IMG/VR virus record: IMGVR_UViG_3300031993_000003
Strand: one strand, 5' to 3'
DNA from: a virus
DNA length: 64,000 nt
Positions 6,770 through 47,770 of the stretch are shown piece after piece (position 1 is the stretch's first letter; the number at the start of each line of letters is the position of its first letter). The notes below the pieces were generated by a model, which did not search any database, was not told the DNA's origin, and saw nothing but the letters and a program-made list of their open reading frames with translations. A program made the position numbers and the translations under genes.

Positions 6770-6782
6770 TTTGCTATATTTG
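6770..6782 (+). promoter_or_regulatory. TTTGCTATATTTG promoter 13-mer (Bacteroidota-type -7 box TAnnTTTG).
   Basis: Exact 13-mer; GAGGAGG lies 2 nt after the motif and the ATG at 6800 is 18 nt downstream. Confidence 0.6.
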
Positions 6783-6799
6783 AGAGGAGGAATTCAATC

Positions 6800-7066
6800 A
6801 TGAATGCCAGACTTGAGGACTTTTCAGCAGACTACGTGGTCGTACCGATGTTCAACGCGGGCAACTACGGCATCACCAACGTCGACCGTGGCGACATGAC
6901 CGACAAGGAGTGGGCCGTGTGGAACCGTGTCAGGACGGTGCCGGAAATCAAGGCTGCAATCAAGTCAGCGCCTAGACCCCAGGAAATACCGGGGAAGGTC
7001 CTCGCAGTACTAGAAGAGAGAGGAATCGCAAGATGTCTAACAAACCAGGAACGACCTATCATGTAA
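6800..7066 (+). CDS. Hypothetical protein.
   Basis: ORF preceded by the promoter 13-mer and a GAGGAGG ribosome-binding site. Confidence 0.55.
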   Translation: MNARLEDFSADYVVVPMFNAGNYGITNVDRGDMTDKEWAVWNRVRTVPEIKAAIKSAPRPQEIPGKVLAVLEERGIARCLTNQERPIM

Positions 7067-7875
7067 CCGAGGCCGACTGCCGGACGGCATTCGACCAGTG
7101 TAGGGGATGCAACTACGTCTCGTCCAACGAGCGGTACAGGGACTGTGCAGACCGGGTGTACCTCTATATAGCGGAGGATACTGACCTGGTTAACGCATAC
7201 GCCGCCAGAATCAACGACCAGGCCAGGTCGTATCTCCAGCAGGTATACTCCGAGGTCAACTGGAACAAGTATGACCACATCATGATTATTACCGCCGGTA
7301 TGCTCCGGTGGGTCACCGTGATGTCCGCCATCTGCGAGTACATGGACCGCACCAGGAAGATTGGCGAGGCCAAGAAGATGCTCATCTGGGCGGCCAACAG
7401 GCTCACCCGCAGCTGCGCGGCCACCGACTTCGTAGCCCGTTTCGCCGACCAGTTCGGACTCCAGTGCGACGGCCGCCGGGAGGAGGTCTGCCGCATCTAT
7501 GCCATAGCCATGCTTATAGGCATCTTCGGTCATGAACTGGGCCACATGTGTCTCGGCCACTGCGGGGAGACCGCGCAGCGCGAGCAGAGTTCCGTATCCA
7601 GGAACAACGAGCGCTCCGCCGACATGTTCGCCTCGTCCGTCGCCCAGTCACTGGCAAACGGTTTCGCAGGTGCAGTGGGTGCAGTGTTCGCCGACATATC
7701 GTTCATGTGGATGGACGGGAAGCACAACAAGATGTATGGCGGCAAGGAATCCGAGTTCGCCACCCACCCGATGTCACGTGAACGTGTCGAGATGTTCATC
7801 GACTCGTTCAACACAGTGCTTGCCACTTCCCCGATTTCGGCAAAGATGCTCCGCAAGCTCATGAAGGACGCATAA
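7033..7875 (+). CDS. Putative zinc metallopeptidase (HExxH: FGHELGHMCLGH).
   Basis: An HELGH motif with a downstream Glu/Asp-rich segment; 280 aa. Confidence 0.45.
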   Translation: MSNKPGTTYHVTEADCRTAFDQCRGCNYVSSNERYRDCADRVYLYIAEDTDLVNAYAARINDQARSYLQQVYSEVNWNKYDHIMIITAGMLRWVTVMSAICEYMDRTRKIGEAKKMLIWAANRLTRSCAATDFVARFADQFGLQCDGRREEVCRIYAIAMLIGIFGHELGHMCLGHCGETAQREQSSVSRNNERSADMFASSVAQSLANGFAGAVGAVFADISFMWMDGKHNKMYGGKESEFATHPMSRERVEMFIDSFNTVLATSPISAKMLRKLMKDA

Positions 7876-8360
7876 TGGCTACAGTAAACGTAGAAGTCAC
7901 CGAGTTCACCGTACAGTACGTGCTCAAGGAAATCGAGCGGGACCTCCCGAAGATGCTCCCGGTGAGCAAGTATTCAGTCGAACTGGAACTCGAGATACCG
8001 GACGACCTTCAGCAGTACCTCCCGGCCTACGTCGAGGGTATGAAGCTGAGGGACAACCCGGATATCAAGGGCGGAAAGGACGGGGCACTCATCCCGGAAT
8101 ACGATGCCCCGAGGGAGGTCGTCAAGAAGTGGAAGAAGTTCCTGATGACCAACTACGACGACGCATTCGACAAGACCACCGGTCCCGACATGGTAATCGA
8201 CTCGGCAATCAGCTGCACACTGGAGGACTCCATCAAGGACTCGCTCGAGTCCCTGTGGGACGAGACACTAGAGGAGTCGCTGGGGGCTGCTCCCGAGGTG
8301 CCCCCGGGATACCGCCGGGATACCCGGTTCATTCACCTGGTTGACTGGAAGGTAAAATAA
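7875..8360 (+). CDS. Hypothetical protein.
   Basis: 161-aa ORF; its start overlaps the upstream stop (ATAATGG). Confidence 0.5.
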   Translation: MATVNVEVTEFTVQYVLKEIERDLPKMLPVSKYSVELELEIPDDLQQYLPAYVEGMKLRDNPDIKGGKDGALIPEYDAPREVVKKWKKFLMTNYDDAFDKTTGPDMVIDSAISCTLEDSIKDSLESLWDETLEESLGAAPEVPPGYRRDTRFIHLVDWKVK

Positions 8361-8414
8361 CCAATGGGGCTACCGGGAGGTAGCCTCTTGCAATAGTTTA
8401 ATTAGCGAGGAAAT

Positions 8415-9233
8415 ATGATGCACGAGTTCTTCGAGAGACTGGAAGTGTTCTCCCTGATACAGGCGGACCCCAAGTACAAGTCATTCACCTACGACAAGAT
8501 ACCGATGGTGGGTGTTACCAAGGTGTGCCAGGCATGCACGCCTCCTTTCGACAAGGTGTCTGCTGCGACCAAGAAGGCAGCCAAGCTGACTGCGGAAGGT
8601 ACCCCTACCACGCCTGAACAGCTCATAGCCGAGTGGGACCTCTCTGGAAAGATTTCGACGGAACTGGGATGCGCCCTGCATTCCTACATCGAGGCTTCTC
8701 TCGCCAACAAGTTCGCCCGCTACCCTGCCGACGAAATCAAGAAGGCGTTCCAGGGAGAGGACCCGGTGTTCCAGAGGTACACCAAGGTATGCACCCAGTT
8801 CGACGCGATGCGCGATAAGTTCCGCGGCAAGATGATACCGGTGGCATCAGAGCTAGTGGTCGGCGACCCCTCGACGATGATATGCGGCATCATCGACCAG
8901 CTCTTCTGGAACAAGACGGCGAACGAGTTCCAGATTTGGGACTGGAAGACGAACAAGGAACTCAAGATGTCCTCCCAGTTCATGCTGAACGACCCCCTGG
9001 GACACGTATCTACATCGGACGTGGACAAGTTCTCGCTGCAGGTTTCATTCTACAAGAAGATTTTCACCAAGATGACGGGCATACCCATCGGCAACTGCTA
9101 CATCTGCTGGTTCTCCTCGGAACGCGAGGCGGGACAGATAATCCCGGTCAAGGACATGAGCAGGGAAGTGGAGATACTGGAGCAGCTCTCGACGAAGCAG
9201 CGCGGCATCGTTGACCAGAATTCGGTATTCTAA
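8415..9233 (+). CDS. PD-(D/E)xK-family nuclease (RecB/Cas4-like motifs GIIDQLF … QIWDWKTNK).
   Basis: Motif II 'hhhD' and motif III 'E/D-x-K' spaced as in RecB-family phage exonucleases. Confidence 0.45.
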   Translation: MMHEFFERLEVFSLIQADPKYKSFTYDKIPMVGVTKVCQACTPPFDKVSAATKKAAKLTAEGTPTTPEQLIAEWDLSGKISTELGCALHSYIEASLANKFARYPADEIKKAFQGEDPVFQRYTKVCTQFDAMRDKFRGKMIPVASELVVGDPSTMICGIIDQLFWNKTANEFQIWDWKTNKELKMSSQFMLNDPLGHVSTSDVDKFSLQVSFYKKIFTKMTGIPIGNCYICWFSSEREAGQIIPVKDMSREVEILEQLSTKQRGIVDQNSVF

Positions 9234-9541
9234 TGGATATAGAGAAGATAGAGAAGATTAAGGCGTCGTTCACCGACGAGCAGAGGGAACTCTACAACGT
9301 GCTGCTGGGCGATACGGAGAAGCTCCACCGCGAGTGGAAGCTCTGCCACGACATGTACAGGAAGGCGGCCGCCGTGCTCAACGCCAAGGAGACAGGGCCG
9401 GAGGTCCGCCTCCTTCTTCGTCCGGCATCTACGGACTACTGGAACCGCCGCAGGCTCGCTCTCGAGCGCACCATGGAACAGGTAGGCATGAACGACCTGC
9501 TGGTTACCTGGCGCAAGGAGGCCTCGGATGCCGAGAAGTAA
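9233..9541 (+). CDS. Hypothetical protein.
   Basis: 102-aa ORF with start overlapping the upstream stop. Confidence 0.45.
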   Translation: MDIEKIEKIKASFTDEQRELYNVLLGDTEKLHREWKLCHDMYRKAAAVLNAKETGPEVRLLLRPASTDYWNRRRLALERTMEQVGMNDLLVTWRKEASDAEK

Positions 9542-13392: not shown

Positions 13393-13415
13393 AAAAGCCC
13401 GCCATCAGGCGGGCT
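13393..13415 (+). terminator. Hairpin GCCCGCC-atcag-GCGGGC followed by a T-run; it fuses directly to the promoter 13-mer.
   Basis: Perfect 7-bp GC stem plus TTTT. Confidence 0.5.
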
Positions 13416-13427
13416 TTTGCTATATTT
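13415..13427 (+). promoter_or_regulatory. TTTGCTATATTTG promoter 13-mer.
   Basis: Exact motif, located at the left junction of the AT-rich IS607-like island. Confidence 0.55.
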
Positions 13428-13799
13428 GTTGTAGAACAGAGGAACACATATGCGGATAGAAGAAATACAGATAATGGAAAATGATAATAACGGTGTAATC
13501 AATCTTGTTCGAGACCGGTTATTCTGGCGGGCTTGGGAGAGGTCAGCCTATCTATTCAATATGCACATCATTCCATACAAGGTCCAGCATAAGTCATATA
13601 AGCAGATTAATAAGGAAATGCTATTTATTGGATTTCCCGATACTTCATTGGATAAGGTTAAACGGATATCAACTGGACAACATTTCGATATACATATTGT
13701 ATCGGAATCACATATTATTAAATGAAAATTGTTATAAACTATTGATAACTGTATAAAAATAATGTATATTTAATATAGTTATTGGTAGGAAACTCAATT

Positions 13800-14426
13800 A
13801 TGAGAGCAAAAGAAGCATTAAACCTGTTGGATGTCACAAGGGAAACTCTATGCCGTTATGTCCGTGAAGGCAAGATTAAGGTAAAACATAAATATAGCCG
13901 AACACGGTATGAATACGATGACGATTCGGTATATGCGTTCATCGGTAAGGTAGTAGATAAGAAGAACCGTGATATAGTTACCTATTCCCGTGTATCTACA
14001 CAAAACCAGAAGAAGCAACTTGAAGAGCAGAAACAACGGATATACGATTCGTGCGTAGCTCGTGGATTGATAGTCTCCAAGCAATACAGCGACATTAAGT
14101 CTGGTATGAACAGTGACCGCAAAGACTTCCAAGAGATAATTAGACGAGTAATCCAGGGCGAACTGGAACTAGTGGTCGTGGAGAACAAGGACAGACTGAT
14201 TCGTTTCGGCTTCGACTTGCTGGAACAGATTTTCAAGTTCTATGATTGTAAAATTCTTGTATTGAATGATGTGCTAGATAACAAGACATACGAACAGGAA
14301 CTCACCGAAGACCTAATCTCGATAATCCACTACTTCACGATGAAGAACTATTCTCACCGTAGAAAGCTCAATACGTTGAGAAAAGAACTAGAAAAGCAAG
14401 AAAACCCATCCAAATTGAATAAATAG
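13800..14426 (+). CDS. tnpA: IS607-type TnpA: N-terminal MerR-like HTH fused to a serine-recombinase (resolvase) catalytic domain.
   Basis: …IVTYSRVSTQNQKKQLEEQ… (catalytic Ser motif Y-x-R-V-S-T), preceded by a HTH. Confidence 0.65.
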   Translation: MRAKEALNLLDVTRETLCRYVREGKIKVKHKYSRTRYEYDDDSVYAFIGKVVDKKNRDIVTYSRVSTQNQKKQLEEQKQRIYDSCVARGLIVSKQYSDIKSGMNSDRKDFQEIIRRVIQGELELVVVENKDRLIRFGFDLLEQIFKFYDCKILVLNDVLDNKTYEQELTEDLISIIHYFTMKNYSHRRKLNTLRKELEKQENPSKLNK

Positions 14427-14474
14427 TTATAGACAACTATATAAACTTATAGATGAAATGGAATAAATATCTAT

Positions 14475-15770
14475 ATGAAGACGGTTAGACTGACGATAAG
14501 CAACAAGATAGATGTGCTGGACGACATGAGGCTGTTCAGCAGTATCGTGCGTGTTGCGTTTAACCGTTACCAGGACGGGATGGAAGAGAAGGAAGTACGA
14601 GCGTACTGCAATTCGATGTTCGACCACAACAGCTGGTTCATCCAGTCCGCCGTCAAGGAAGCTGCTGCGCTGTACAAGCTGAATGGCGAGAAGCATATCC
14701 TGTTCGGTGGAAAGAACAACCTGCACCAGTACCTTGTCGGGATTATAGACAAGACTACTTTCAAGTACCGCAGGATGTTCCCGATAGGCATCCAGGGCGA
14801 GAAACTGCATAAGGGCAATAGGCTGTTTGCCTTTGACCTTGACCATCAACGACTTACATACAAGCCCAGCAAGGACAGACACGTAGACATTCGGTTCCTT
14901 CCGATGAAGAAGAAAATCACCAGTGAAATTGCAAAGGTACAGCAACTTGTCGAACAGAACAAGATAACGGTTTCCGTCAAGTTGTCGGAAAAATATGTAT
15001 GGCTTACCTATGACGAGAGCCTAATATACAATGCGAGGTTCAAGAAGCTAGACTGTAGGCGAGTTCTCGGCATCGACATGAATCCTAACTACATCGGGCT
15101 TTCGGTAATAGAGTTCGACAAGAACGACGAGTTCAAGGTTCTCCATAAGCAAGTGTTCGATTTAAGCAAGCTGACGGGTTCTTCCGGCAAGGCGAGCACT
15201 GACAGTAAGTCCAAGTACATCACGAGCAAGCTAAGGCACGAGACGATTGCAATTGCTCACGAGATTTCCAAACTAGTAGATGTATGGAAGTGCAAGACCG
15301 TGGCTATCGAAGACTTGAGCATCAAGCCGAAAGACCAGAAGAAAGGCAAGAAACTAAACAAGCTGTGCAACAACAAATGGGAACGCCGATTGTTCGTTAC
15401 GAAGCTGAAGATGCTTGCTAACCTGCATAGATTCGATTTGGTTGAGGTCAATCCAGCGTATTCATCCATCGTAGGAAACTTTGCCTACGGTAGCGAGAAT
15501 ACGCCAGACATGGTTGCTGCCAGCATCGAAATCGGCAGACGTGCATACAAGAAATTTGAAAAGAGATGGTTCTATCCAAGATTCAATATTCAGTTCCGAG
15601 ATGAGCAATGGAAGCAAACACTCGGTCCGGTGGATGACTGGAAAGGACTATTCTCAAGAATCAAAGAAACGGGACTGAAATACCGTTTCCTGCTACGGGA
15701 CTATGTCCAGAATGCAGTCTTCAGCAAGAACTATATACAAAAGTGCTATAATATTTACACTTTTGCATAG
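14475..15770 (+). CDS. tnpB: TnpB-like RuvC-fold nuclease (OrfB of IS607/IS605).
   Basis: RuvC-I GIDMN, RuvC-II AIEDL, RuvC-III-like ENTPDMVAAS; 431 aa immediately downstream of tnpA. Confidence 0.6.
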   Translation: MKTVRLTISNKIDVLDDMRLFSSIVRVAFNRYQDGMEEKEVRAYCNSMFDHNSWFIQSAVKEAAALYKLNGEKHILFGGKNNLHQYLVGIIDKTTFKYRRMFPIGIQGEKLHKGNRLFAFDLDHQRLTYKPSKDRHVDIRFLPMKKKITSEIAKVQQLVEQNKITVSVKLSEKYVWLTYDESLIYNARFKKLDCRRVLGIDMNPNYIGLSVIEFDKNDEFKVLHKQVFDLSKLTGSSGKASTDSKSKYITSKLRHETIAIAHEISKLVDVWKCKTVAIEDLSIKPKDQKKGKKLNKLCNNKWERRLFVTKLKMLANLHRFDLVEVNPAYSSIVGNFAYGSENTPDMVAASIEIGRRAYKKFEKRWFYPRFNIQFRDEQWKQTLGPVDDWKGLFSRIKETGLKYRFLLRDYVQNAVFSKNYIQKCYNIYTFA

Positions 15771-16035
15771 TTATATATAGTTTTTGTATTTTAAAGTCTT
15801 TCATACCGAGAATACGGGAATTCCTTGATGGCACACTTGGACTGCAGTTGCACCCGAATAAGATACAGCTCCAGTCCATATATCATGGCTTCGAGTTTCT
15901 TGGAACATACATATTGCCATGGAGGAAGTATCCAGGCCGGAGGCTTCGTAAGAAATTGGCATCCGGCATCAATATGGACGACTATCATGGGGTTCTTTGC
16001 TATCTGAATGGTACTGAATTCCACAAATAGCGACT

Positions 16036-16051
16036 ATTTTTGCTATATTTG
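16036..16051 (+). promoter_or_regulatory. TTTTTGCTATATTTG promoter motif; the ATG of ligA is only 6 nt downstream, so the mRNA may be leaderless.
   Basis: Exact motif; in Bacteroides transcription starts ~7 nt after TAnnTTTG, which falls at or next to the ligA ATG. Confidence 0.55.
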
Positions 16052-16056
16052 TAGGC

Positions 16057-18168
16057 ATGATAGATTTCAAGCAATACACCGAGATGTGCGACGTCCTCAC
16101 CCAGTGGGCGAAGGAATACGCAGCAGGCACGCCCTCCGTTCCGGACGACGTATACGACAAGAACTACATCATGCTCAAGGAGTTCGAGGCGGCGAACCCG
16201 GACTTCATCCTCGATACGTCGCCTACCAGGCACGTCGAGGACGGCGCCGAGGGCTTCCGGAAGGTAAGGCACGAAATCCCGATGATTTCCATCTCCAACT
16301 CCAACGGCATCGAGGAGGCCACCGAGTGGTGCACTGCCACGATGACCAAGGCTCCCACACTGGAACTTGAATACAAGATTGACGGTCTCGGCCTTGCCCT
16401 GAAGTACAAGGACGGCCAGCTCATTGACTCAATCACCAGAGGCAAGGACAACGTGGGCGACTCTGTCTACGAGAACGCTCTCAGAGTCCGCAGAATCCCC
16501 CACAAGATTGACCTCATGGGAGACGTGGAAATCCGCGGCGAGGTGGTATGGAAGTTCGCTGACTTCGAACCAATCAATGACCAGCTCGAGGCGGACGGAA
16601 AGAAAACCTTCGCCAACCCGAGGAATGGCGCCGCCGGTACGCTCAAGATGCACGACCCGGAGGAGGTAGGCCGCCGCGGGCTCTCCTTCATCGGCTACCT
16701 CATCGTCAAGGGCAGCCCGAACATGACCCAGACCCAGGACATCGACACCCTCGAATCACTAGGCTTCGAGGTCCCCGAGCACCACACAGTCAACTCCATA
16801 CAGGACTTCGTTAACATAGCCGAATCCATGCGCGAGCGCCGGTTCGCCCAGGCATATCCCATCGACGGCGTGGTAATCAAGGTGGACAGCAAGGAACTCC
16901 AGTCCACCTTCGGCTACACGGCAAAGTCCCCCAACTTCTACCGTGCCTACAAGTTCCCCCCGGAGGAGAAGGAGACGCTCCTGCTCAACATCGAGGAATC
17001 CATCGGCATGTCCGGCGCAATCACCCCGGTAGCCGTAATCGAGCCGGTGAACCTGGCCATGACCACGGTCACCCGCTGTTCCCTCCACAACTGGGACCTA
17101 GTAGACTACCTCGGCTTGCACAAGGGCTGCCACGTGGTAATCCGGAAGGCGGGCGAGATTATCCCCGAGCTGGTCAAGTGCGTGGAGACCGGCCGTACCA
17201 AGGACGAGTACGAGGTACTCCGCACCAAGGCCGACCGCGAGCACGTAGCCCACGTAATGCCGTGGAACCCTACTACGGATGCAGAACGCCATTACGCCCG
17301 CTACACCCGTCCTTCCCACTGTCCGTATTGCGGCTCGGTGCTGAAGTGCCAGGTGAACGAATCCGGCAAGGAACTGGTTGGATGGGTATGCGACAACCCT
17401 GACTGCCGTGCGCAGCTTACCGGCAAGCTGTCCAACTTCGTCTCCCGCGAGTGCATGAACATCATGGGCGTCGGAGAGTCCATCGTCGACCAGCTCGTGG
17501 AGTCCGGAATGGTCACATGCTTCGCCGACCTGTATACGCTGAATGCGGAATCCGTTGCATCATGGTGTGGAAAGACGGAGAAGGGCGCACAGAAGATTAT
17601 CGACGCAATCCAGAAATCCAAGGGCAACTACCTGCACCAGCTCATCGAGGGGCTCTCCATCCCCGGCATAGGCCACCAGGTGTCACCGGCGATAGCCAAG
17701 TGCGTATCCGACGCGGGCGGGTTCGCAAAGTTCGTCTCGTCCAACCCGGAGGAGTCCGCGGAGTTCATCAGGGATTTCGCAATCAACGCATCCTCGTCCG
17801 GCGTATCTGACCTCCTCGCCAACAAGTTCGTCGAGTACATCACGAACAACGTGGTCCAGATTGCACGGTTCGTCCAGATGGGTATCGCCCAGACAGTCAA
17901 GGAAGTCCAGTCCGCCAAGCTCGCAGGCAAGGTCTGCATCATGACCGGTACCTTCGAGAAGCTCGACCGCGACGTGTTCAAGGACATGGTGGTAGCAAAT
18001 GGCGGTACAGTCTGCTCGTCGATTACCAAGAAATGCAACGTGGTGCTCATGGGAGACAATGCCGGCCCCTCCAAGGTCCAGAAAATCAAGGACCTTACCG
18101 CTGCAGGACAGCACATCGATGTCTACACCCCGGAAACCCTCGACCAGTTCCTGGACCTACTCAAGTGA
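16057..18168 (+). CDS. ligA: NAD+-dependent DNA ligase LigA.
   Basis: Adenylation motif EYKIDGLGLALKY (KxDG); the C-terminal tetra-Cys zinc finger CPYCGSVLKC…C…C; a C-terminal BRCT-like segment; 703 aa. Confidence 0.8.
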   Translation: MIDFKQYTEMCDVLTQWAKEYAAGTPSVPDDVYDKNYIMLKEFEAANPDFILDTSPTRHVEDGAEGFRKVRHEIPMISISNSNGIEEATEWCTATMTKAPTLELEYKIDGLGLALKYKDGQLIDSITRGKDNVGDSVYENALRVRRIPHKIDLMGDVEIRGEVVWKFADFEPINDQLEADGKKTFANPRNGAAGTLKMHDPEEVGRRGLSFIGYLIVKGSPNMTQTQDIDTLESLGFEVPEHHTVNSIQDFVNIAESMRERRFAQAYPIDGVVIKVDSKELQSTFGYTAKSPNFYRAYKFPPEEKETLLLNIEESIGMSGAITPVAVIEPVNLAMTTVTRCSLHNWDLVDYLGLHKGCHVVIRKAGEIIPELVKCVETGRTKDEYEVLRTKADREHVAHVMPWNPTTDAERHYARYTRPSHCPYCGSVLKCQVNESGKELVGWVCDNPDCRAQLTGKLSNFVSRECMNIMGVGESIVDQLVESGMVTCFADLYTLNAESVASWCGKTEKGAQKIIDAIQKSKGNYLHQLIEGLSIPGIGHQVSPAIAKCVSDAGGFAKFVSSNPEESAEFIRDFAINASSSGVSDLLANKFVEYITNNVVQIARFVQMGIAQTVKEVQSAKLAGKVCIMTGTFEKLDRDVFKDMVVANGGTVCSSITKKCNVVLMGDNAGPSKVQKIKDLTAAGQHIDVYTPETLDQFLDLLK

Positions 18169-18769: not shown

Positions 18770-18825
18770 CACCGGGAGGAATGTATAACCATCGACGACA
18801 GCACCAGGCTGTGCGGGGATAAAGA

Positions 18826-19083
18826 ATGGACCGTATACTGAAATCGTATTCGCGCGAGGAAATCGCCGAGATGGAACCGGGAAAGGACCGGTTCTACCTC
18901 GCCGAGGACGTCGAGAGGGAAATCGGCAGGCTCCGGAGGGAACTCCGGGAGGTTAAGGAAGCTCCCGGGGAGAACCGGGAGAAGGTTGTCATATACAAGG
19001 ATGACCGCTGGATATGTAACGGGAATGTCCCGGACCCGGACCCTGCAGAAATCGAGCGTCAAAAGTGGGGACTTTTCGGTTGA
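18826..19083 (+). CDS. Small hypothetical protein, paralog B.
   Basis: 85 aa; its N-terminus is identical to 18542-18769 and its C-terminus has diverged. Confidence 0.5.
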   Translation: MDRILKSYSREEIAEMEPGKDRFYLAEDVEREIGRLRRELREVKEAPGENREKVVIYKDDRWICNGNVPDPDPAEIERQKWGLFG

Positions 19084-19097
19084 CGCCGGGAGGAACC

Positions 19098-19110
19098 TTT
19101 GCTATATTGG
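19098..19110 (+). promoter_or_regulatory. Variant promoter motif TTTGCTATATTGG upstream of the tRNA-Gly fragment.
   Basis: 12/13 match to the 13-mer. Confidence 0.4.
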
Positions 19111-19116: not shown

Positions 19117-19174
19117 TGCGGCGGTAATTCAGTAGGTAGAATATCTGCCTTCCAAGCAGACTGTCGCCGGTTCG
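19117..19174 (+). pseudogene. tRNA-Gly(UCC) 5' portion (acceptor 5' strand through T-loop TTCGA), interrupted by an insertion element.
   Basis: GCGGCGG-TA-ATTC/GAAT D-arm; anticodon stem TCTGC/GCAGA with loop CTTCCAA; T-stem GCCGG; the sequence then leaves the tRNA fold after TTCGA. Confidence 0.55.
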
Positions 19175-21166
19175 ACCGTTGGCTGAAATCTACTCAAACT
19201 TACCAGCAGTAAGAATTGTGTGATTTCCCATGGCCTGCTTGAACAGGCCACTGCAACGGCATTTTTCCAGGCACCTCCTTACCTTCCACATGGGCAGGCT
19301 CTTTGGCTGGAAGTACCTGTATCCGCCATCCCCTGCCAGTTCAAGCAGGTTCCCCCTTAACACGGTCGAGGTAACGCGGAATTTTATGTTTACCGAACTG
19401 TTGCGGTCTGCATTGTCCTGATGGTGGCATTCCACACAGTCGAAAGTTTCCTGGTCAGGGCGGTTACGGTCGTCTATCGCGCCGCATACCGGGCACATCT
19501 TGGAAGTATATTCCGGGTGTATCAGCGAAAGCGATTCGCCGTACTTCGGGGCGATGTGCTCGACCTCGTCCTTCAGAGATGAAAGTCCTATCCGGAGATG
19601 CAGACGGCCCAGGTTCATACCGTTCCTATCCGTCGAATCCAGCCGCCTTCCCTGGAACCCGGTCAGGTTCTCCATCACTATGTGACGGTAACCCCGCGAG
19701 TACAGGTCCTTGCACATGGCCGCTATGCGTCTTTTGTTTGACTCGTTCAGCTTCAAGGTAATGGCTTCAATGCGTTTCTTGTCCTTGTGAGAAATCTTGA
19801 ACGCATCATGTTCTTCGTCCTTAGCAAACCGGGCATTGTAGTTCTTCTGCTTCTGGTCTATTTTTAGCAGTTCGGTCTCCAGTTCCGCAACGAGTTCCTC
19901 GTCGTGTGGGATGAACTCCCCGGTGCTCAAAGCGAACATGTTGTGCTTGGAATTGACGTCTATGCCGACGGTATTTTCTTCTGTAATTTCATCGGTATTC
20001 TTGTAACGGTAACCGTCCCTTGCGAGGACTATATGGATGTCCTTTCCTCGGACAACCATCGTATAGGATGTATCTTCCCCGTTGCAGTAGCGGTTCAACG
20101 AGCGATGGTAGGCCTTGTTGTATTTGAATGGCATACACAAGGTATTCTTGCTATCACCACGGTATCCTTGGTCGAACCAATCCCATGAAAATTCGATGAA
20201 ATAGTCGAACTTTCCGGTTTCGTTACGCCTAGCATCTACGATAGGACGCTTGATACGGCTACGACCGGAAAATGTGAGCGATTCGAAGGTAATCTTGCCA
20301 CGCTTCTCGTATTCGGAGAATACAGATGTCCTTCTTGACAGCGCCAACCGCATGAGGCGGGCGAAGCCGAACTTGCGTATCTTGGCCAGTATCGTTCTAT
20401 AGAACTTCTGCTTGGATTCTACTGCGGTAGGAATAGCAGATTCAAGCCAATAAACGGTTTCTTCCTTGCCGTACCGAGCAAGCCAAGTAAGTACCTTCGT
20501 TAGTTCAGTCTTCTTGGTATGGCACTCTATGGACTTCAAGTCACCTTTCTTGTGTCCCTTGACATTTATCTTGTAGAACGAGGGAACAAGTTCCTCTACC
20601 TTGACGAACTCAATCTTCTTGCGGATTGCATCAAAGCGAAGCTGGTACGCTCGCCACACATCTTCAATAGCCTTCTTCAAGTAGTGGCTAGATAGGCGTG
20701 TATTGAATGTCGGGTTGAATAAATTGAACGCCTCGAACTTAGACATATCCTGGAAGCCGAGCATATCCGAGAAGAACACTTCCGATATGTCGTTCCTTAC
20801 TGCACGGATTTCCTCTGCTCGATGAATAATTTCGGCTCGCTTGGTGTCGGACAACAGGATAGGATAGAACGCGGCGGAGAACTGCGACTTGTACCTATCC
20901 TTCAATGTCCAACAATGATTGCTCATACAATACAGAAATGGCTCGTTAGGAACTTATTGTGAGATTCAATTCCAAACGAGCCATCATAAAGGTCTCTTAC
21001 GGAGCTTAATGAAGAATCTCACTAATTCATTAAACCTATATACATTAAGTTTATAACAATATACAAAATTTTATGCCGAATTTCAACTTAAAAATACACT
21101 AAATGCATGCAAATTTAGTTAGATTTAAGTAAGATTAGGCAGATTTTAAGTTAGCTGTGGGTAACC
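19175..21166 (-). mobile_element. TnpB-only (IS200/IS605-family, IS1341-like) insertion element of ~2 kb inserted in the T-loop of tRNA-Gly(UCC).
   Basis: tRNA 5' portion at 19117-19174 and the matching 3' portion (CCGGT-CCGCCGC) at 21167-21178; TnpB ORF between them; a TTAC tetranucleotide at the element end next to the 3' tRNA piece (minus strand). Confidence 0.5.
19190..20926 (-). CDS. tnpB: TnpB-like RuvC nuclease (578 aa) with a C-terminal zinc finger.
   Basis: RuvC-I …VGIDVNSKHN…, RuvC-II …HIVMENLTGF…, CPVCG…CVECHH zinc finger plus RuvC-III DNADRNSSVNI. Confidence 0.65.
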   Translation of the reverse strand: MSNHCWTLKDRYKSQFSAAFYPILLSDTKRAEIIHRAEEIRAVRNDISEVFFSDMLGFQDMSKFEAFNLFNPTFNTRLSSHYLKKAIEDVWRAYQLRFDAIRKKIEFVKVEELVPSFYKINVKGHKKGDLKSIECHTKKTELTKVLTWLARYGKEETVYWLESAIPTAVESKQKFYRTILAKIRKFGFARLMRLALSRRTSVFSEYEKRGKITFESLTFSGRSRIKRPIVDARRNETGKFDYFIEFSWDWFDQGYRGDSKNTLCMPFKYNKAYHRSLNRYCNGEDTSYTMVVRGKDIHIVLARDGYRYKNTDEITEENTVGIDVNSKHNMFALSTGEFIPHDEELVAELETELLKIDQKQKNYNARFAKDEEHDAFKISHKDKKRIEAITLKLNESNKRRIAAMCKDLYSRGYRHIVMENLTGFQGRRLDSTDRNGMNLGRLHLRIGLSSLKDEVEHIAPKYGESLSLIHPEYTSKMCPVCGAIDDRNRPDQETFDCVECHHQDNADRNSSVNIKFRVTSTVLRGNLLELAGDGGYRYFQPKSLPMWKVRRCLEKCRCSGLFKQAMGNHTILTAGKFE

Positions 21167-23245: not shown

Positions 23246-23757
23246 ATTTTTAAAAATATTCGAGAAAAAGGTTGCAAAAATAAGAAAAAATATATAAACT
23301 GTATGAGATGAGTGAACGAACAAGTTATGCCCTTGCACGCAGAACCATCAAAGCATAACCGACCATATAACTAACATTCAGAGCCTTCGGCTACGACCTT
23401 AATTGGGGAAGTTGAAGGACAAGGTATGGAAGGGCCGAGATGCGGAGCCGCAAGTCTTCAGAAGCATGACCGCTGTAACTGCCGTCAAGACATAGAGATG
23501 CAAATGCAGTCCCCAAAACTCACGTGGAGGGGATAGAGGCCGTTGTAGTTCGGCCATCACGTACTTCGTTGCGTGACTAATCGCTTTCATGATTTTTCAT
23601 TGAAAGCGGAAACTATTACCAAATAAAGCACTAATTGATAAATTTGAGTAATATAACTTTCCTAGGGGCTATAATCTGGTGACAACACCTCCCCAGAAGG
23701 GGAGGGCTTATAAGTAGAACATTTTTCTTATGCATGTTTGACACGAAGCAAGATTTT

Positions 23758-23770
23758 TTGCTATATTTGT
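23758..23770 (+). promoter_or_regulatory. TTTGCTATATTTG promoter 13-mer upstream of the second tRNA cluster.
   Basis: Exact motif. Confidence 0.55.
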
Positions 23771-28932: not shown

Positions 28933-28983
28933 AAGATTGTATCCGAACAAAATCACGTCAAGCGGGTCGCCACGGCGGCCCGC

Positions 28984-28997
28984 TTTTGCTATATTTG
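28984..28997 (+). promoter_or_regulatory. Terminator hairpin (GCGGGTCGCCACGGCGGCCCGC) fused to the TTTTGCTATATTTG promoter.
   Basis: Exact motif; the ATG at 29003 is 6 nt downstream. Confidence 0.55.
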
Positions 28998-31464: not shown

Positions 31465-31599
31465 AAGGCTATGTCAACCCAAAGTGTTGCTATTGCATAA
31501 TCAAAAAATAAATTGCTATATTTGCAATAGGCTAACTCCCGTTCATTTCGTAGCGAAAAATGCCTGAGCAACAACTTGGGTGGACAAAGCCAAGTAGTA

Positions 31600-31612
31600 T
31601 TTGCTATATTTG
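31600..31612 (+). promoter_or_regulatory. TTTGCTATATTTG promoter 13-mer (a second, weaker copy lies at 31512-31524).
   Basis: Exact motif 31 nt upstream of the ATG at 31643. Confidence 0.55.
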
Positions 31613-33250: not shown

Positions 33251-33263
33251 ATTGCTATATTTG
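33251..33263 (+). promoter_or_regulatory. ATTGCTATATTTG promoter motif.
   Basis: 12/13 match. Confidence 0.45.
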
Positions 33264-37396: not shown

Positions 37397-37450
37397 ATAG
37401 GTGAATTTCTTCAAAAAAAGTCCGCGGAAATGCTCCGTGGACTTTTCTCT

Positions 37451-37463
37451 TTTGCTATATTTG
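37451..37463 (+). promoter_or_regulatory. Terminator hairpin (GTCCGCGG…CCGTGGAC) followed by the TTTGCTATATTTG promoter.
   Basis: Exact motif 25 nt upstream of the ATG at 37488. Confidence 0.55.
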
Positions 37464-40853: not shown

Positions 40854-40878
40854 AAAGAGTCCCGCCGGCGGCGGGATT

Positions 40879-40891
40879 TTTGCTATATTTG
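40879..40891 (+). promoter_or_regulatory. Terminator hairpin (CCCGCCGGCGGCGGG) followed by TTTGCTATATTTG.
   Basis: Exact motif. Confidence 0.55.
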
Positions 40892-41233: not shown

Positions 41234-41246
41234 TTTGCTATATTTG
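41234..41246 (+). promoter_or_regulatory. TTTGCTATATTTG promoter 13-mer.
   Basis: Exact motif. Confidence 0.5.
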
Positions 41247-41296: not shown

Positions 41297-41644
41297 ATGA
41301 CGAAGACGGTACAGAAGGGCCGGAGCCACGAGCTGGAACACCTCCGCAAGGAGGTGGAACGCCTGTCTTCCGCCCTTACTGCAATAAAGAACCAGAAGGA
41401 CGCTTACTTCCTCGAAATCCGGGAGGATGACGGGGAGAGCTTCCGCATAACGAGGACGTATTATCGCGCCAAGAAGGATGCGGTGAACGACCTCAACGTC
41501 GCCAAGCACGCTTTCTGCGAGGGGGACGAGGCATTGCTTGCCAAGTCGCCGGAGCAGGTAGCCAGAGGCAACGTAGACCTTACAATATCGCGGGACGACG
41601 GTCACGTGTTTCGCGGAATCATAACCAGAATAAAAATCATATAG
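41297..41644 (+). CDS. Hypothetical coiled-coil protein.
   Basis: 115 aa. Confidence 0.45.
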   Translation: MTKTVQKGRSHELEHLRKEVERLSSALTAIKNQKDAYFLEIREDDGESFRITRTYYRAKKDAVNDLNVAKHAFCEGDEALLAKSPEQVARGNVDLTISRDDGHVFRGIITRIKII

Positions 41645-43650: not shown

Positions 43651-43663
43651 TTTGCTATATTTG
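43651..43663 (+). promoter_or_regulatory. TTTGCTATATTTG promoter 13-mer.
   Basis: Exact motif. Confidence 0.5.
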
Positions 43664-46618: not shown

Positions 46619-46663
46619 GGATTCCCCGGGAGTTTTCCGGTAGTTTATGGATGGCTGGAGAAA

Positions 46664-46676
46664 ATTGCTATATTTG
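46664..46676 (+). promoter_or_regulatory. ATTGCTATATTTG promoter motif.
   Basis: 12/13 match 34 nt upstream of the ATG at 46710. Confidence 0.45.
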
Positions 46677-46709
46677 AAGAAAACTTAAACCAACCTAAAG
46701 AGGTACCAA

Positions 46710-47006
46710 ATGAACACCAAGACAAAAGTAATCATCGCAACCACGTGTGCCGCCGTCCTGGTAGGCTCCGCGCTGTCCTTCAAGAAGATTAAGGCCGGCG
46801 TCACCAAGATTATCAAGGCGGAGGAACCGGAGGACGAGGAAGACCGCAAGGCCAAGTTCGACAGCACCAACGAGTATGTCGGCGATAGCTGCGAGGCAGA
46901 AGCCTGCGACTGTGCCGCACGCCGTCAACGCCGAGCTGAATCCATGTCGGCTATTGAACCCTGCTGTGATTCCGCAGTCATGGGCAAGACCCGCCTGGTC
47001 GACTAG
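46710..47006 (+). CDS. Small secreted protein (signal peptide).
   Basis: MNTKTKVIIATTCAAVLVGSALSF…. Confidence 0.45.
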   Translation: MNTKTKVIIATTCAAVLVGSALSFKKIKAGVTKIIKAEEPEDEEDRKAKFDSTNEYVGDSCEAEACDCAARRQRRAESMSAIEPCCDSAVMGKTRLVD

Positions 47007-47031
47007 CATAAACTCCGGACGAGGAATTACA

Positions 47032-47709
47032 ATGGCTATTACTGTTATCTTTTCGGACCTTGGGGATGTGGACTGCGCGAGCATCCCGAACCTCTGGGCA
47101 GGCATTCCTGACGTCAACGTACTCAGGTTGACCATGGATTCTCCCTTTACCCGGGAGGACGTCCATGAAGCCATCCGCAACGAGTCGGATACGCTCATCA
47201 TGGCCGGCCATGGAACCCCGGCAGGCCTTCTTGGCTACGTCGCCCCTCCGAAGGAGGAAGAGGACGAGGAAGCGGACGAACTTGAAGCCGGCGATACCTT
47301 CGGGTACAATACCGCTCTCGGCCCTGCAGCGTCGAGGAAACGCCGGCCGTACCCGGGATACCGCCACCTCGATACCGTCGTCGACAGCATGATGGCCAAG
47401 GACATCCACGCCGACAAGGTAATCGCAGTATGGTGCCATGCGTCCAGCTTCGCCAAGGCGAACAACCTGTACGGGTTCTGGTCCTCCATGTTCATCTCCA
47501 ACAGCTCCGAGGCACGCTACTGCGGATATCCCGGAGTTCCCAACGAGATTATCGTGAAGGAGACCGTGAAGTTCTGGCGCGATGCCAACGTGCTACTCAA
47601 GGCAGGAGTTCCCCTGGAGGAATGGGTCGACCGTCTCAAGTCCGTAGCCAACATGAACTACCCGACCACCAAGTACAACTACGACGGGCTGATGTACTTC
47701 CCGAAATAG
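47032..47709 (+). CDS. Hypothetical protein with a caspase-like His/Cys dyad context (…LIMAGHGTP… / …VIAVWCHASS…).
   Basis: β-strand-like N-terminus ITVIFSD; the spacing between HG and C is compatible with the C14/CHAT fold; weak. Confidence 0.3.
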   Translation: MAITVIFSDLGDVDCASIPNLWAGIPDVNVLRLTMDSPFTREDVHEAIRNESDTLIMAGHGTPAGLLGYVAPPKEEEDEEADELEAGDTFGYNTALGPAASRKRRPYPGYRHLDTVVDSMMAKDIHADKVIAVWCHASSFAKANNLYGFWSSMFISNSSEARYCGYPGVPNEIIVKETVKFWRDANVLLKAGVPLEEWVDRLKSVANMNYPTTKYNYDGLMYFPK

Positions 47710-47755
47710 CTGAGTTCATGAAGTGATTTATGAAATCCCCCGGTATACCGGGGGA

Positions 47756-47770
47756 TTTTTGCTATATTTG
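47756..47770 (+). promoter_or_regulatory. Terminator hairpin (CCCCCGGTATACCGGGGG) followed by TTTTTGCTATATTTG.
   Basis: Exact motif. Confidence 0.55.

What the first reader, a model, noticed from the sequence alone, without database searches (positions are those of the whole stretch)
6770..47770. Identical 13-mer TTTGCTATATTTG, often fused to a terminator hairpin, precedes 15 + strand genes or operons
Exact or near-exact copies start at 6770, 13415, 16039, 19098, 23758, 28985, 31512, 31600, 33251, 37451, 40879, 41234, 43651, 46664 and 47758. The sequence matches the Bacteroidota sigma-A '-7' consensus TAnnTTTG, which argues for a Bacteroidota host despite ~58% GC. Many copies are immediately preceded by a GC-stem hairpin plus T-run, forming compact terminator-promoter cassettes. 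At ligA the ATG is only 6 nt downstream, suggesting a leaderless transcript. The invariance of 13 nt well beyond the -7 box suggests an additional phage-specific determinant.
Basis: partly seen in the sequence, partly recalled or inferred. Interest (0 to 1): 0.6.

Follow-up and report, generated by a model that had tools for sequence, protein, structure and literature searches.

The report
Phage promoter repeated before gene cassettes
A 13-base sequence repeated 15 times in this uncultivated giant phage is almost certainly its standard strong promoter, often joined to a terminator hairpin as in T4-type phages. It does not show that the host is a Bacteroidota bacterium.

Summary
TTTGCTATATTTG occurs 11 times exactly and 4 times with one mismatch. 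All copies are on the + strand, intergenic and co-oriented with the next gene or tRNA; chance expectation is about 0.

It behaves as a promoter. In 44 unique copies from this window and related phage contigs, an ATG lies exactly 5 nt after the motif in 10. tRNA 5' ends lie 7-8 nt after it in three cases. The leaderless ligA arrangement is kept in relatives with 67-72% LigA identity.

The invariant core across relatives is TTGCTATATT, which reads as an extended -10 element (TGnTATATT). The 3' TTTG varies in relatives. A TTGnCA -35 box sits 17 bp upstream in copies that lack a hairpin. The Bacteroidota -33 TTTG is not enriched. About 69% of genes carry Shine-Dalgarno-like sites, against 11% in a Bacteroides phage control.

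The best reading is therefore a canonical sigma-70-type, -35-independent promoter. Five of 15 copies abut GC hairpins, forming terminator-promoter cassettes like the PeSLs of T4-type phages. One indel and one mobile 125-bp cassette are bounded by the motif.

The host remains unidentified. This is a new member of a known kind, of modest interest.

The parts
6770..6782 (+). Promoter copy (exact 13-mer) in a divergent intergenic region. The gene at 6800 follows after 17 nt that include an SD.
13393..13418 (+). GC hairpin (intrinsic-terminator-like). Its T-tract is formed by the first bases of the promoter copy at 13416.
   Evidence: dG -21.4, z -4.4
13416..13428 (+). Promoter copy (exact) and left boundary of the inserted module. 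It precedes the 91-aa ORF at 13450.
13429..16038 (+). Module lying between two promoter copies: a 91-aa ORFan truncated by an IS607-like element (resolvase 13782-14426, TnpB-like 14475-15770). It is absent from relatives L133, L137 and L134, where a single cassette directly precedes ligA.
16039..16051 (+). Promoter copy (exact) of ligA. The ATG starts 5 nt after the motif, implying a leaderless mRNA.
16057..18168 (+). NAD-dependent DNA ligase gene, inferred leaderless.
   Evidence: Pfam LigA domains; spacing kept in relatives
19080..19085 (+). -35 box TTGACG, 17 bp upstream of TATATT of the 19098 copy.
19098..19110 (+). Promoter copy with one mismatch (TTTGCTATATTGG). The tRNA-Gly 5' end lies 7 nt downstream.
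19118..19168 (+). 5' part of tRNA-Gly(TCC), interrupted by an IS605-like element (tnpB 19190-20905 on the minus strand). It is the transcription target of the 19098 copy.
23738..23743 (+). Perfect -35 box TTGACA, 18 bp upstream of TATATT of the 23757 copy.
23757..23769 (+). Promoter copy (exact) ahead of tRNA-Ser (23833) and the downstream tRNA and small-gene cluster.
28960..28985 (+). GC hairpin abutting the promoter copy at 28985.
   Evidence: dG -21.6, z -5.1
28985..28997 (+). Promoter copy (exact). The ATG of a 74-aa membrane-protein gene (29003-29227) starts 5 nt after it (leaderless).
31467..31591 (+). 125-bp cassette with roughly 30-nt inverted-repeat arms enclosing the promoter copy at 31512 and about 65 nt of transcribed non-coding sequence. 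It is 100% identical in an otherwise unrelated context in L069, with variants in L139, L140 and L141.
31512..31524 (+). Promoter copy (ATTG variant) inside the palindromic cassette.
31600..31612 (+). Promoter copy (exact) of the SPFH/prohibitin-like lipoprotein gene (31643-32407).
33251..33263 (+). Promoter copy (ATTG variant). A hairpin (GGACA..TGTCC) starts right after the motif, so here the stem-loop lies downstream of the -10.
37416..37446 (+). GC hairpin with T-tract just upstream of the 37451 copy.
   Evidence: dG -19.7, z -6.9
37451..37463 (+). Promoter copy (exact) of the AAA_5 ATPase operon (37488 onward).
40855..40881 (+). GC hairpin fused to the 40879 copy.
   Evidence: dG -17.3, z -4.2
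40879..40891 (+). Promoter copy (exact) of the ORFan at 40914-41210.
41234..41246 (+). Promoter copy (exact) of the ORFan at 41297-41644.
43651..43663 (+). Promoter copy (exact), divergent from the minus-strand IS genes. A 34-aa ORF starts 7 nt after it, and the next gene is at 43905.
46664..46676 (+). Promoter copy (ATTG variant) in a divergent region; the gene starts at 46710.
47732..47759 (+). GC hairpin fused to the 47758 copy.
   Evidence: dG -23.7, z -8.0
47758..47770 (+). Promoter copy (exact), the last of the + strand block.
57589..57601 (-). Weak extra copy of the core (GATGCTATATTTT) on the minus strand, 45 nt upstream of the minus-strand gene 56552-57556. A candidate only.

Best explanation
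The 13-mer is the -17 to -5 region of this phage's main promoter class. It is most likely read by the host's primary sigma-70-family holoenzyme. This mechanism is inferred, not measured.

Proposed anatomy, numbered from the TSS: T-17 T-16 T-15 G-14 C-13 | T-12 A-11 T-10 A-9 T-8 T-7 | T-6 G-5.
- TG at -15/-14 together with TATATT forms an extended -10 promoter, which needs no -35 box.
- That allows a GC hairpin with a T-tract (an intrinsic terminator for the upstream unit) to occupy the -35 region in 5 of the 15 copies.
- Copies without a hairpin often carry TTGnCA at a 17-bp spacer.
- Transcription is inferred to start 5-7 nt after the motif. This produces leaderless mRNAs (ligA and the 29003 gene), nearly leader-free tRNAs, or short SD-containing leaders.

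The result is a chain of insulated terminator-promoter expression cassettes in front of mostly ORFan genes, tRNAs and DNA-metabolism genes. This is the architecture of the PeSL cassettes of T4-type phages.

As with PeSLs, the shared motif coincides with boundaries of gene-content differences between related genomes. It therefore probably also serves as a short homology patch for modular exchange.

By analogy with T4, this would be the early (host-RNAP) class. The timing is not shown.
For: - Non-random placement: 15 of 15 copies are intergenic, on the + strand and co-oriented with the next feature.
- TSS geometry: among 44 unique TGCTATATT sites in the window and relatives, ATG lies exactly 5 nt after the 13-mer in 10 and 4 nt after it in 3, against an expected ~0.7 per position. 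tRNA 5' ends lie 7-8 nt after it at window 19098, L134 8609 and L137 8627.
- Conservation: orthologous ligA promoters in relatives with 67-72% LigA identity keep the core and the leaderless spacing, while the upstream DNA is unrelated.
- Sigma-70 features: TG at -15/-14 and TATATT are invariant. The column consensus TTGnCA sits exactly 17 bp upstream of TATATT. A match of 5/6 or better to TTGACA occurs in 10 of 44 sites against 1.4% of control positions. TTG peaks at one position (10 of 42). TTTG is not enriched there.
- Hairpins: 5 of 15 copies have strong GC hairpins whose T-tract is the motif's own 5' end.
- ORFan context: most downstream genes have no Pfam or PHROG hit.
- Modular exchange: the segment 13429-16038 lies between two copies and is absent in L133, L137 and L134. 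The 125-bp cassette 31467-31591 is identical in a different context in L069 and occurs twice in another genome.
- T4-like background: the DNA polymerase of near-identical variant L129 is distantly gp43-like, and a T4 Y07B family gene lies nearby.
- PeSL definition, from Arbiol et al. (PMC2839356) and Comeau et al. (PMC4122927): strong sigma-70-like promoters plus stem-loops in variable positions, upstream of ORFans, flanking indels.
Against: - No transcript data exist. TSS, strength and timing are all inferred.
- The -10 hexamer is always TATATT, never the canonical TATAAT. T-6 and G-5 are kept in 14 of 15 window copies. A plain sigma-70 model does not predict this, whereas the Bacteroidota TAnnTTTG box does.
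- The host is unidentified: both genome-contig scans failed.
- A second cassette type (GGGGGATGC) dominates the neighbouring minus-strand block, whose genes look anti-defence or early. The 13-mer class could therefore be middle rather than early.
- Evidence for recombination at the motif rests on one indel and one mobile cassette. The hairpins differ in sequence, so shared homology is only about 13-17 nt, much less than the ~100 bp of T4-type PeSLs.
Confidence: 0.62

Rival explanations
1. The motif is a Bacteroidota sigma-ABfr '-7' promoter (TAnnTTTG), the host is a Bacteroidota bacterium, and the extra 5' bases are a phage-specific addition.
For: - TATATTTG fits TAHHTTTG perfectly in 14 of 15 copies.
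- The 5-nt distance to leaderless ATGs equals the 4-5 nt between the -7 box and the TSS in F. johnsoniae (PMC6847099).
- T at -8 is invariant, as in Bacteroidota boxes.
- A Fib_succ_major domain protein is encoded at 11913-13334; by my recollection, not checked here, that domain is typical of the Fibrobacter-Chlorobi-Bacteroidetes (FCB) group.
- The SPFH lipoprotein is 66-71% identical to proteins of 30%-GC megaphage contigs. These resemble Prevotella-infecting Lak phages, but that link is my recollection and was not verified.
Against: - T-6 and G-5 vary in relatives while TG-C stays invariant.
- The upstream box is TTGnCA at 17 bp, not TTTG at 19-21 bp.
- SD-like sites occur in 69% of genes against a 20% background. 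Bacteroides phage B40-8 shows 11% against 17%, and Bacteroidia do not use SD (PMC6847099, PMC9976891).
- Short leaders are rare in Bacteroidota: about 3.7% of B. thetaiotaomicron 5' UTRs are under 10 nt (PMC7366714).
- Generic TAHHTTTG is not enriched in intergenic DNA once the 13-mers are masked.
Confidence: 0.2
2. The 13-mer is recognised by a phage-encoded specificity factor rather than by unmodified host holoenzyme. Candidates are a gp55-like late sigma, a full sigma-70-family protein, or a sigma-appropriating protein. That would explain 13 invariant bases.
For: - The invariance covers positions that host sigma factors normally leave free (C-13, T-10, A-9, T-6) across 15 copies whose flanks are unrelated. 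This looks like constraint rather than recent duplication.
- The phage is distantly T4-like, and T4 late promoters are also short, -35-less, invariant AT-rich boxes.
- P23-45 shows that a phage can favour extended -10 promoters by remodelling sigma region 4 (PMC3950348).
Against: - A canonical -35 box at canonical spacing is enriched 16-fold. A gp55-type factor would not use one.
- The downstream genes (ligase, tRNAs, CCA-adding enzyme, ORFans) are early or middle types, not structural.
- No sigma-like or RNAP-like protein was detected among the window proteins scanned.
- A different motif (ATAAACT) is a better candidate for a T4-late-like box.
Confidence: 0.13
3. The motif is primarily a DNA-level site, such as a recombination, nicking, replication or packaging signal, or the footprint of a small mobile repeat. 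Any link to transcription is incidental.
For: - One copy sits inside a 125-bp palindromic, MITE-like cassette found in several contexts.
- Motif copies bracket an indel.
Against: - Strict co-orientation with downstream genes.
- Fixed 5-nt spacing to ATG and 7-8 nt spacing to tRNA 5' ends.
- A phased -35 box and fusion to terminators.
All of these are promoter properties. Moreover, 14 of 15 copies have no extended repeat around them.
Confidence: 0.05

Closest known systems
PeSL (promoter-early stem-loop) cassettes of T4-type phages (Arbiol et al. 2010, PMC2839356; Comeau et al. 2014, PMC4122927)
   Same: - A strong sigma-70-like promoter is combined with a GC stem-loop terminator in one short intergenic unit.
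- The stem-loop can lie upstream of, or just downstream of, the -10.
- Many copies occur per genome, mostly upstream of ORFans in variable regions.
- Copies flank indels between related genomes.
- The phage has a (distantly) gp43-like DNA polymerase.
   Different: - Conservation here is concentrated in 13 nt, and the hairpin sequences are all different. PeSLs share about 100 bp including AT-rich and -35 parts.
- Only 5 of 15 copies carry a hairpin.
- Several copies drive leaderless mRNAs or tRNAs, whereas PeSLs end with an SD.
- No evidence of mini-circles was sought or found.
- The phage is very far from the T4 group (25% polymerase identity).
Extended -10 (TGnTATAAT) class promoters, including the middle/late promoters of Thermus phage P23-45 (PMC3950348)
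   Same: - TG at -15/-14 immediately upstream of the -10 hexamer.
- The -35 box is dispensable.
- A phage uses the class for most of its genes, and intrinsic terminators lie between units.
   Different: - The hexamer is TATATT, followed by a conserved TG.
- No sigma-4-remodelling factor has been identified here.
- The host and the temporal class are unknown.
Bacteroidota sigma-ABfr promoters (-33 TTTG / -7 TAnnTTTG)
   Same: The octamer TATATTTG matches the -7 consensus, and the inferred distance to the TSS (5 nt) matches the 4-5 nt reported.
   Different: - The upstream element is TTGnCA, not TTTG.
- T-6 and G-5 are not conserved in relatives.
- TG at -15/-14 is not part of the -33/-7 consensus described in the papers read.
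- The phage uses SD sites and leaderless mRNAs, both atypical for that phylum.
T4-type late promoters (TATAAATA, gp55-dependent)
   Same: A short, invariant, AT-rich -10-region box that works without a -35 box, in a distantly T4-like phage.
   Different: - The sequence differs.
- A -35 box is present in a quarter of copies.
- The downstream genes are not structural.
- A separate ATAAACT motif in this genome resembles the late box more closely.

Membership tests
Sigma-70-type extended -10 promoter | TG dinucleotide one base upstream of the -10 hexamer (-15/-14) | tested here: met
   All 15 window copies have TG-C-TATATT. The 44 family sites were selected by the core TGCTATATT, so their TG is true by selection and is no independent test. 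In relatives the bases 3' of the core vary while the core is kept.
Sigma-70-type extended -10 promoter | -10 hexamer close to TATAAT with T-12, A-11 and T-7 | tested here: met
   TATATT (5 of 6) is present in every copy. T replaces the consensus A at -8.
Sigma-70-type extended -10 promoter | Optional -35 TTGACA at a 17 +/- 1 bp spacer | tested here: met
   The column consensus TTGnCA lies 17 bp upstream. A match of 5/6 or better occurs in 10 of 44 sites against 1.4% of controls, and perfect TTGACA occurs at 23738 and in L136.
Sigma-70-type extended -10 promoter | Transcription starts about 6-8 nt downstream of the hexamer | tested here: inconclusive
   Only indirect evidence: ATG 5 nt after the 13-mer in 10 of 44 sites, and tRNA 5' ends 7-8 nt after it. 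No RNA data are available.
Bacteroidota sigma-ABfr -33/-7 promoter | -7 box TAnnTTTG (TAHHTTTG) with near-invariant T-6 and G-5 | tested here: inconclusive
   Met in 14 of 15 window copies. In related phages the same promoters end in TTTA, TTCA, TTGA, TTGG, TTTT or TTGT.
Bacteroidota sigma-ABfr -33/-7 promoter | -33 element TTTG about 19-21 bp upstream of the -7 box | tested here: not met
   TTTG shows no positional peak, whereas TTG(A)C(A) peaks at the sigma-70 position.
Bacteroidota sigma-ABfr -33/-7 promoter | Bacteroidota host context: genes lack SD sites and most mRNAs have leaders | tested here: not met
   SD-like sites occur in 56 of 81 genes against a 20% background. The Bacteroides phage B40-8 control has 5 of 46 against 17%. 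Recurrent leaderless starts occur here.
Bacteroidota sigma-ABfr -33/-7 promoter | Host is a member of Bacteroidota | not testable with these tools
   Both genome-contig scans (via the phage's TnpB) found no close relative. The phage and plasmid collections were uninformative.
PeSL cassettes of T4-type phages | Composite of a strong sigma-70-like promoter and an adjacent stable stem-loop | tested here: met
   Five copies have abutting upstream GC hairpins. One has a hairpin just after the -10 (33251), with similar cases in L134 and L137. Ten copies have no hairpin.
PeSL cassettes of T4-type phages | Many copies, preferentially upstream of ORFans in variable regions | tested here: met
   There are 15 copies in 41 kb. 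Most downstream genes lack any family hit. IS elements and tRNAs are interspersed.
PeSL cassettes of T4-type phages | Copies flank insertions, deletions or replacements between related genomes | tested here: met
   The module 13429-16038 lies between two copies, against a single cassette in L133, L137 and L134. The promoter cassette 31467-31591 is shared with L069 in unrelated flanks. The sample of comparisons is small.
PeSL cassettes of T4-type phages | Carried by a T4-type myovirus | tested here: inconclusive
   Only a distant gp43-like polymerase (about 25% identity) and a T4 Y07B family hit were seen in the near-identical variant L129. No structural genes were seen.
PeSL cassettes of T4-type phages | Recombination between copies yields mini-circles | not testable with these tools
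   This requires inverse PCR or long reads from infected cells.
T4-type late promoter | TATAAATA box with no -35, upstream of late (structural) genes | tested here: not met
   The sequence differs, a -35 box is present in a quarter of copies, and the downstream genes are ligase, tRNAs and ORFans.

The most novel reading that the evidence does not exclude
The strict 13-mer is not just a strong sigma-70 promoter but a hybrid signal. It would combine the canonical -35/TG elements with the Bacteroidota-type T-8 T-7 T-6 G-5 box, and be read by the primary sigma of an unstudied rumen lineage (for example a non-Bacteroidia member of the FCB group such as Fibrobacterota) or by a phage-remodelled holoenzyme. 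In addition, it would spread between giant phages on small palindromic, MITE-like promoter cassettes such as 31467-31591.
Probability: 0.15. Interest if true: 0.55.

Novelty: new member of a known kind. Interest (0 to 1): 0.33.

Why it matters
- **Annotation.** The motif gives a usable promoter model for a clade of uncultivated giant phages (contigs up to 195-284 kb carry identical window genes). It includes predicted transcription starts, leaderless genes and nearly leader-free tRNAs.
- **Generality of PeSL architecture.** The terminator-promoter cassette design described for T4-type coliphages appears to recur in a very distant lineage.
- **A caution on host prediction.** A perfect match to the Bacteroidota TAnnTTTG box was read as host evidence. 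Comparative data and Shine-Dalgarno usage point the other way.
- **Practical use.** Short, -35-independent promoters that tolerate an abutting terminator are useful parts for compact expression cassettes.

Tried and rejected
- **Near-identical cultured relative.** Megablast of 20 kb against 50,697 phage records found no match.
- **Host through IS elements.**
  - The TnpB at 19190-20905 has over 120 protein clusters at 77-100% identity in metagenomes, on contigs up to 454 kb.
  - Neither the single protein nor a 13-sequence alignment found a relative in 185,579 species genomes, apart from one 27% hit.
  - Plasmid and phage collections gave only distant hits.
  - NCBI-derived homologues come from bulk assemblies without organism names.
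- **Host through LigA, the FtsK-like protein and the SPFH lipoprotein.** Best hits against cultured phages were 30-36% identical and came from many phyla, so they were uninformative.
- **Lak link.** Megablast of the 30%-GC megaphage locus L126 against cultured phages found no match, so its relation to Prevotella Lak phages is unverified.
- **Literature.** A search for the exact 12-mer returned only irrelevant human and mouse papers.
- **Scan of viral contigs for the 14-mer.** Most hits were chance matches inside genes of AT-rich phages. Only contigs with GC of about 50% or more showed promoter-like contexts.
- **Structured sRNA between 31512 and 31600.** The fold z-score was -0.8, and the alignment showed no compensatory pairs. 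I rejected a structured RNA. What remains is a palindromic DNA cassette.
- **Large ORF at 1-4755 (1584 aa).** It has no Pfam, PHROG or PDB sequence match, so I have no evidence that it is an RNA polymerase.
- **Generic TAHHTTTG in intergenic DNA.** It is not specifically enriched once the 13-mers are masked.

Full report
**1. Observation**

TTTGCTATATTTG occurs 11 times exactly, against 0.00 expected in shuffles. At up to 2 mismatches there are 15 copies, the four extra ones each differing at one base, against 0.57 expected. All 15 are on the + strand.

A rough gene map and tRNA calls place every copy in intergenic DNA, although about 80% of the window is coding. Every copy points toward the next gene or tRNA.

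All but one of the TATATTTG octamers in the window lie inside the 13-mer. Sequences flanking the copies are unrelated to one another. The invariance therefore reflects constraint on the 13 bases, not recent duplication of a longer repeat.

**2. What kind of genome this is**

The window carries:
- 19 tRNA genes plus a fragment of a twentieth;
- an NAD-dependent DNA ligase, a CCA-adding/poly(A) polymerase-like enzyme and an AAA_5 ATPase;
- two TnpB-like genes and an IS607-like element;
- many ORFans.

No cultured phage is similar at the DNA level. Window proteins are found, with identical sequence, on metagenome contigs whose longest examples are 195-284 kb. Near-identical variants (L129, L130) carry a family-B DNA polymerase that is distantly T4 gp43-like, ThyX and a T4 Y07B family gene.

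This is therefore an uncultivated giant phage, very distantly T4-like. The IMG sample numbers look to me like rumen metagenomes, but the tools do not show the environment, so that is recollection only.

**3. Evidence that the motif is a promoter, and where transcription starts**

I collected every unique site with the core TGCTATATT from the window and from related contigs fetched through the motif, LigA and other genes. This gave 44 sites.

- An ATG begins exactly 5 nt after the 13-mer in 10 sites and 4 nt after it in 3 more. About 0.7 would be expected at any one offset.
- The cases include ligA here, the 74-aa membrane-protein gene at 29003, three genes in L031, one in L069 and one in L135.
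- tRNA 5' ends lie 7-8 nt after the motif in three cases: the window tRNA-Gly fragment at 19118, and tRNAs in L134 and L137.

These independent features put the transcription start about 5-7 nt downstream of the motif. That is where a -10-region element would place it.

The ligA promoter is informative. Relatives whose LigA is 67-72% identical keep the core and the leaderless spacing, although the DNA upstream of the motif is completely different.

**4. Which promoter type**

Numbered from the inferred start, the motif is T-17 T-16 T-15 G-14 C-13 T-12 A-11 T-10 A-9 T-8 T-7 T-6 G-5. Two readings fit the window alone:
- the Bacteroidota -7 box TAnnTTTG (T-12 A-11 T-8 T-7 T-6 G-5, 4-5 nt from the start; PMC6847099);
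- a sigma-70-type extended -10 element (TG at -15/-14 plus TATATT).

Four lines of evidence separate them.

*(a) Variation in relatives.* The bases TTGCTATATT never change. The 3' TTTG becomes TTTA, TTCA, TTGA, TTGG, TTTT or TTGT. The ligA promoters of L135 and L136 read TATGCTATATTCA.

*(b) The upstream box.* In copies without a hairpin, the upstream columns give the consensus TTGnCA exactly 17 bp from TATATT.
- Matches of 5/6 or better to TTGACA occur in 10 of 44 sites, against 1.4% of control positions.
- Perfect TTGACA occurs at 23738 and in L136, and TTGACG at 19080 and in L138 and L069.
- TTG peaks sharply at one position.
- TTTG, the Bacteroidota -33 element, shows no peak.

*(c) Translation signals.* 56 of 81 predicted genes have an SD-like site at -18 to -4, against a 20% background. 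Many read AAGGAG. My start-codon choice included a bonus for such sites, so the 69% is somewhat inflated. The annotated genes of Bacteroides phage B40-8 show 5 of 46 against a 17% background. That is one control phage. It matches the known lack of SD use in Bacteroidia (PMC6847099; PMC9976891).

*(d) Generic -7 boxes.* Once the 13-mers are masked, TAHHTTTG is no more common in intergenic DNA than letter-permuted controls.

I conclude that the motif is a canonical sigma-70-family promoter of the extended -10 class. The Bacteroidota host inference is not supported.

Two things remain unexplained. The hexamer is always TATATT rather than TATAAT. T-6 and G-5 are kept in 14 of 15 copies in this phage. 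From memory (not checked here), a G at -5 favours sigma region 1.2 contacts in E. coli and Thermus, and a T at -17 is part of the TRTG '-16 region' of Gram-positive promoters.

**5. Terminator-promoter cassettes**

Five copies (13416, 28985, 37451, 40879 and 47758) are immediately preceded by strong GC hairpins, with dG -17 to -24 kcal/mol and z -4 to -8. In four of them the T-tract is formed by the 5' T's of the motif itself. In each case a + strand gene ends 25-151 nt upstream.

These hairpins occupy the -35 region. That is tolerable only for a -35-independent (extended -10) promoter.

At 33251, and in L134 and L137, a hairpin begins right after the motif. A transcript starting there would lack the 5' arm, while read-through from upstream would meet the complete hairpin. 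This last point is inference.

The remaining copies lie in divergent regions or after IS elements and have no hairpin.

**6. Comparison with PeSLs**

Arbiol et al. (PMC2839356) and Comeau et al. (PMC4122927) described PeSLs in T4-type phages. These are about 100 short cassettes per genome pair. [quoted passage not shown] They lie mostly upstream of ORFans in hyperplastic regions and flank the indels that distinguish close relatives.

The present cassettes share that anatomy and context, and I found two exchange signatures.

*First signature.* In L133, L137 and L134 the exonuclease-to-Fib_succ operon is followed by one cassette and then ligA. In the window, a 2.6-kb module lies between two copies of the 13-mer (13416 and 16039). 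The module is an ORFan later truncated by an IS607-like insertion.

*Second signature.* A 125-bp unit (31467-31591) carries the 31512 promoter and about 65 nt of transcribed sequence between roughly 30-nt inverted-repeat arms.
- It is 100% identical in contig 3300028887_000075 (L069), where the neighbouring genes are unrelated.
- It occurs twice in contig 3300012007_000007 and once in 3300028914_000499.

*Differences from PeSLs.* Shared homology here is only about 13-17 nt, because the hairpins all differ in sequence. Only a third of copies have hairpins. Several copies drive leaderless mRNAs or tRNAs.

**7. Other promoter-like classes and timing**

The 13-mer is absent from the minus-strand block at 49-64 kb. 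There, 12 copies of a GC-rich cassette precede almost every gene. Its consensus is CCACCGGG-N-CCGGGGGATGC-YCCCGG-N-CCGGGAGGMATAC, and it lies 62-78 nt before the start codon. There are 23 copies in the 20.5-kb locus L143, which overlaps this block and extends 10 kb beyond the window.

A third motif, ATAAACT, is mostly intergenic (14 of 17). It lies 23-41 nt upstream of start codons on both strands and recurs in the relatives, including upstream of the homologues of the 11044 gene in L133, L134 and L137. It resembles a T4-late-type box more than the 13-mer does.

The genome therefore seems to have at least three promoter classes. By analogy with T4, the sigma-70-type 13-mer would be the early class. 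The GC-rich block, however, carries anti-defence-like genes (methylase, pentapeptide, RadC), so the order is open.

**8. Host**

The host is unresolved.
- The TnpB family of the inserted IS is abundant in metagenomic contigs but absent from 185,579 species genomes.
- Hits in cultured phages are too distant to help.
- Hints toward the FCB group are the Fib_succ_major domain and a 66-71% identical SPFH protein in 30%-GC megaphage contigs.
- SD use and the TTGACA box point to a host with conventional initiation signals.

**9. Verdict**

The motif is a promoter (about 0.9 confidence).

Most likely it is a host sigma-70-type extended -10 promoter organised in PeSL-like terminator-promoter cassettes (0.62). 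The rivals are the Bacteroidota reading (0.2) and a phage-specific factor (0.13).

This is a new member of a known kind. It is useful for annotating a clade of giant phages and as a caution about host inference from a single motif. It would not surprise a specialist.

Noticed in passing
window 54600-63510, minus strand; L143 1-20561: A second, GC-rich regulatory cassette with consensus about CCACCGGG-N5-6-CCGGGGGATGC-YCCCGG-N5-6-ACCGGGAGGMATAC. It lies 62-78 nt upstream of nearly every gene of the minus-strand block and is followed by AAGGAGACA and the ATG. There are 12 copies in the window and 23 in the 20.5-kb L143, all on one strand. None occurs in the 13-mer block. It may be an activator-dependent or phage-RNAP promoter class, or an RNA hairpin signal.
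   Followed up: partly
window, e.g. 4844, 11010, 14441, 36801, 47008, 50225 (+); 6739, 46648, 50201 (-): A third motif, ATAAACT. 14 of 17 copies are intergenic, typically 23-41 nt upstream of start codons on both strands. Three minus-strand copies extend to ATAAACT-N4-GAAAAC. Copies also occur in relatives L133, L134, L137 and L021, including divergent pairs. It is a candidate T4-late-like promoter box.
   Followed up: partly
window 19118-21180: tRNA-Gly(TCC) appears split by an IS605-like element (tnpB 20905..19190 on the minus strand). The 5' 51 nt lie at 19118-19168. The 3' acceptor part CCCCGGTCCGCCGC lies near 21165-21178, and the minus-strand flank ends in TTAC. This TnpB family has over 120 clusters at 77-100% identity on metagenome contigs up to 454 kb, but no close relative in 185,579 species genomes. 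It may be a phage-borne IS lineage.
   Followed up: partly
window 13716-16000; L129: An IS607-like element (serine recombinase 13782-14426 plus TnpB-like 14475-15770; GC about 44%) has its left end at 13716 and truncates the 91-aa ORF at 13450-13725. In the otherwise identical contig L129, the DNA left of this IS end is a different region (ThyX, DNA polymerase). This suggests either IS-mediated rearrangement or an assembly join at a repeated IS.
   Followed up: partly
window 31467-31591; L069, L139, L140, L141: A 125-bp cassette with roughly 30-nt inverted-repeat arms contains a 13-mer promoter. It is present in at least 5 loci of 4 contigs with different flanks and resembles a MITE. It shows no significant RNA structure and no compensatory changes.
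   Followed up: yes
window 31643-32407; L121-L127: The SPFH/prohibitin-like lipoprotein (lipobox LLAGC) is 66-71% identical to proteins encoded on about 30%-GC viral contigs up to 415 kb. It is at most 34% identical to any cultured-phage protein. This implies gene exchange between giant phages of very different base composition.
   Followed up: partly
whole window: Shine-Dalgarno-like sites (often AAGGAG) precede about 69% of predicted genes, against a 20% background. This contrasts with Bacteroides phage B40-8 (11% against 17%).
   Followed up: yes
window 18492-18642 and 18776-18926: A 151-bp direct repeat, 96% identical, covers the starts of two small ORFs (18542 and 18826), which have identical upstream sequence.
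   Followed up: no
window 60277-61558: A 1.3-kb stretch without a confident gene call is packed with CCGGG/CCCGG-containing repeats on both strands, including tandem CCTCCCGGTCG units near 61040-61110.
   Followed up: no
window 1-4755: A very large ORF (at least 1584 aa, running off the left end) has no Pfam, PHROG or PDB sequence match.
   Followed up: partly
L121-L127 (30%-GC megaphage loci): Several genes there are preceded by TATAAATA(T)TAT immediately before the ATG, and one by CTATATTTG+5 nt+ATG. This suggests leaderless or late-promoter-like arrangements in those phages too.
   Followed up: no
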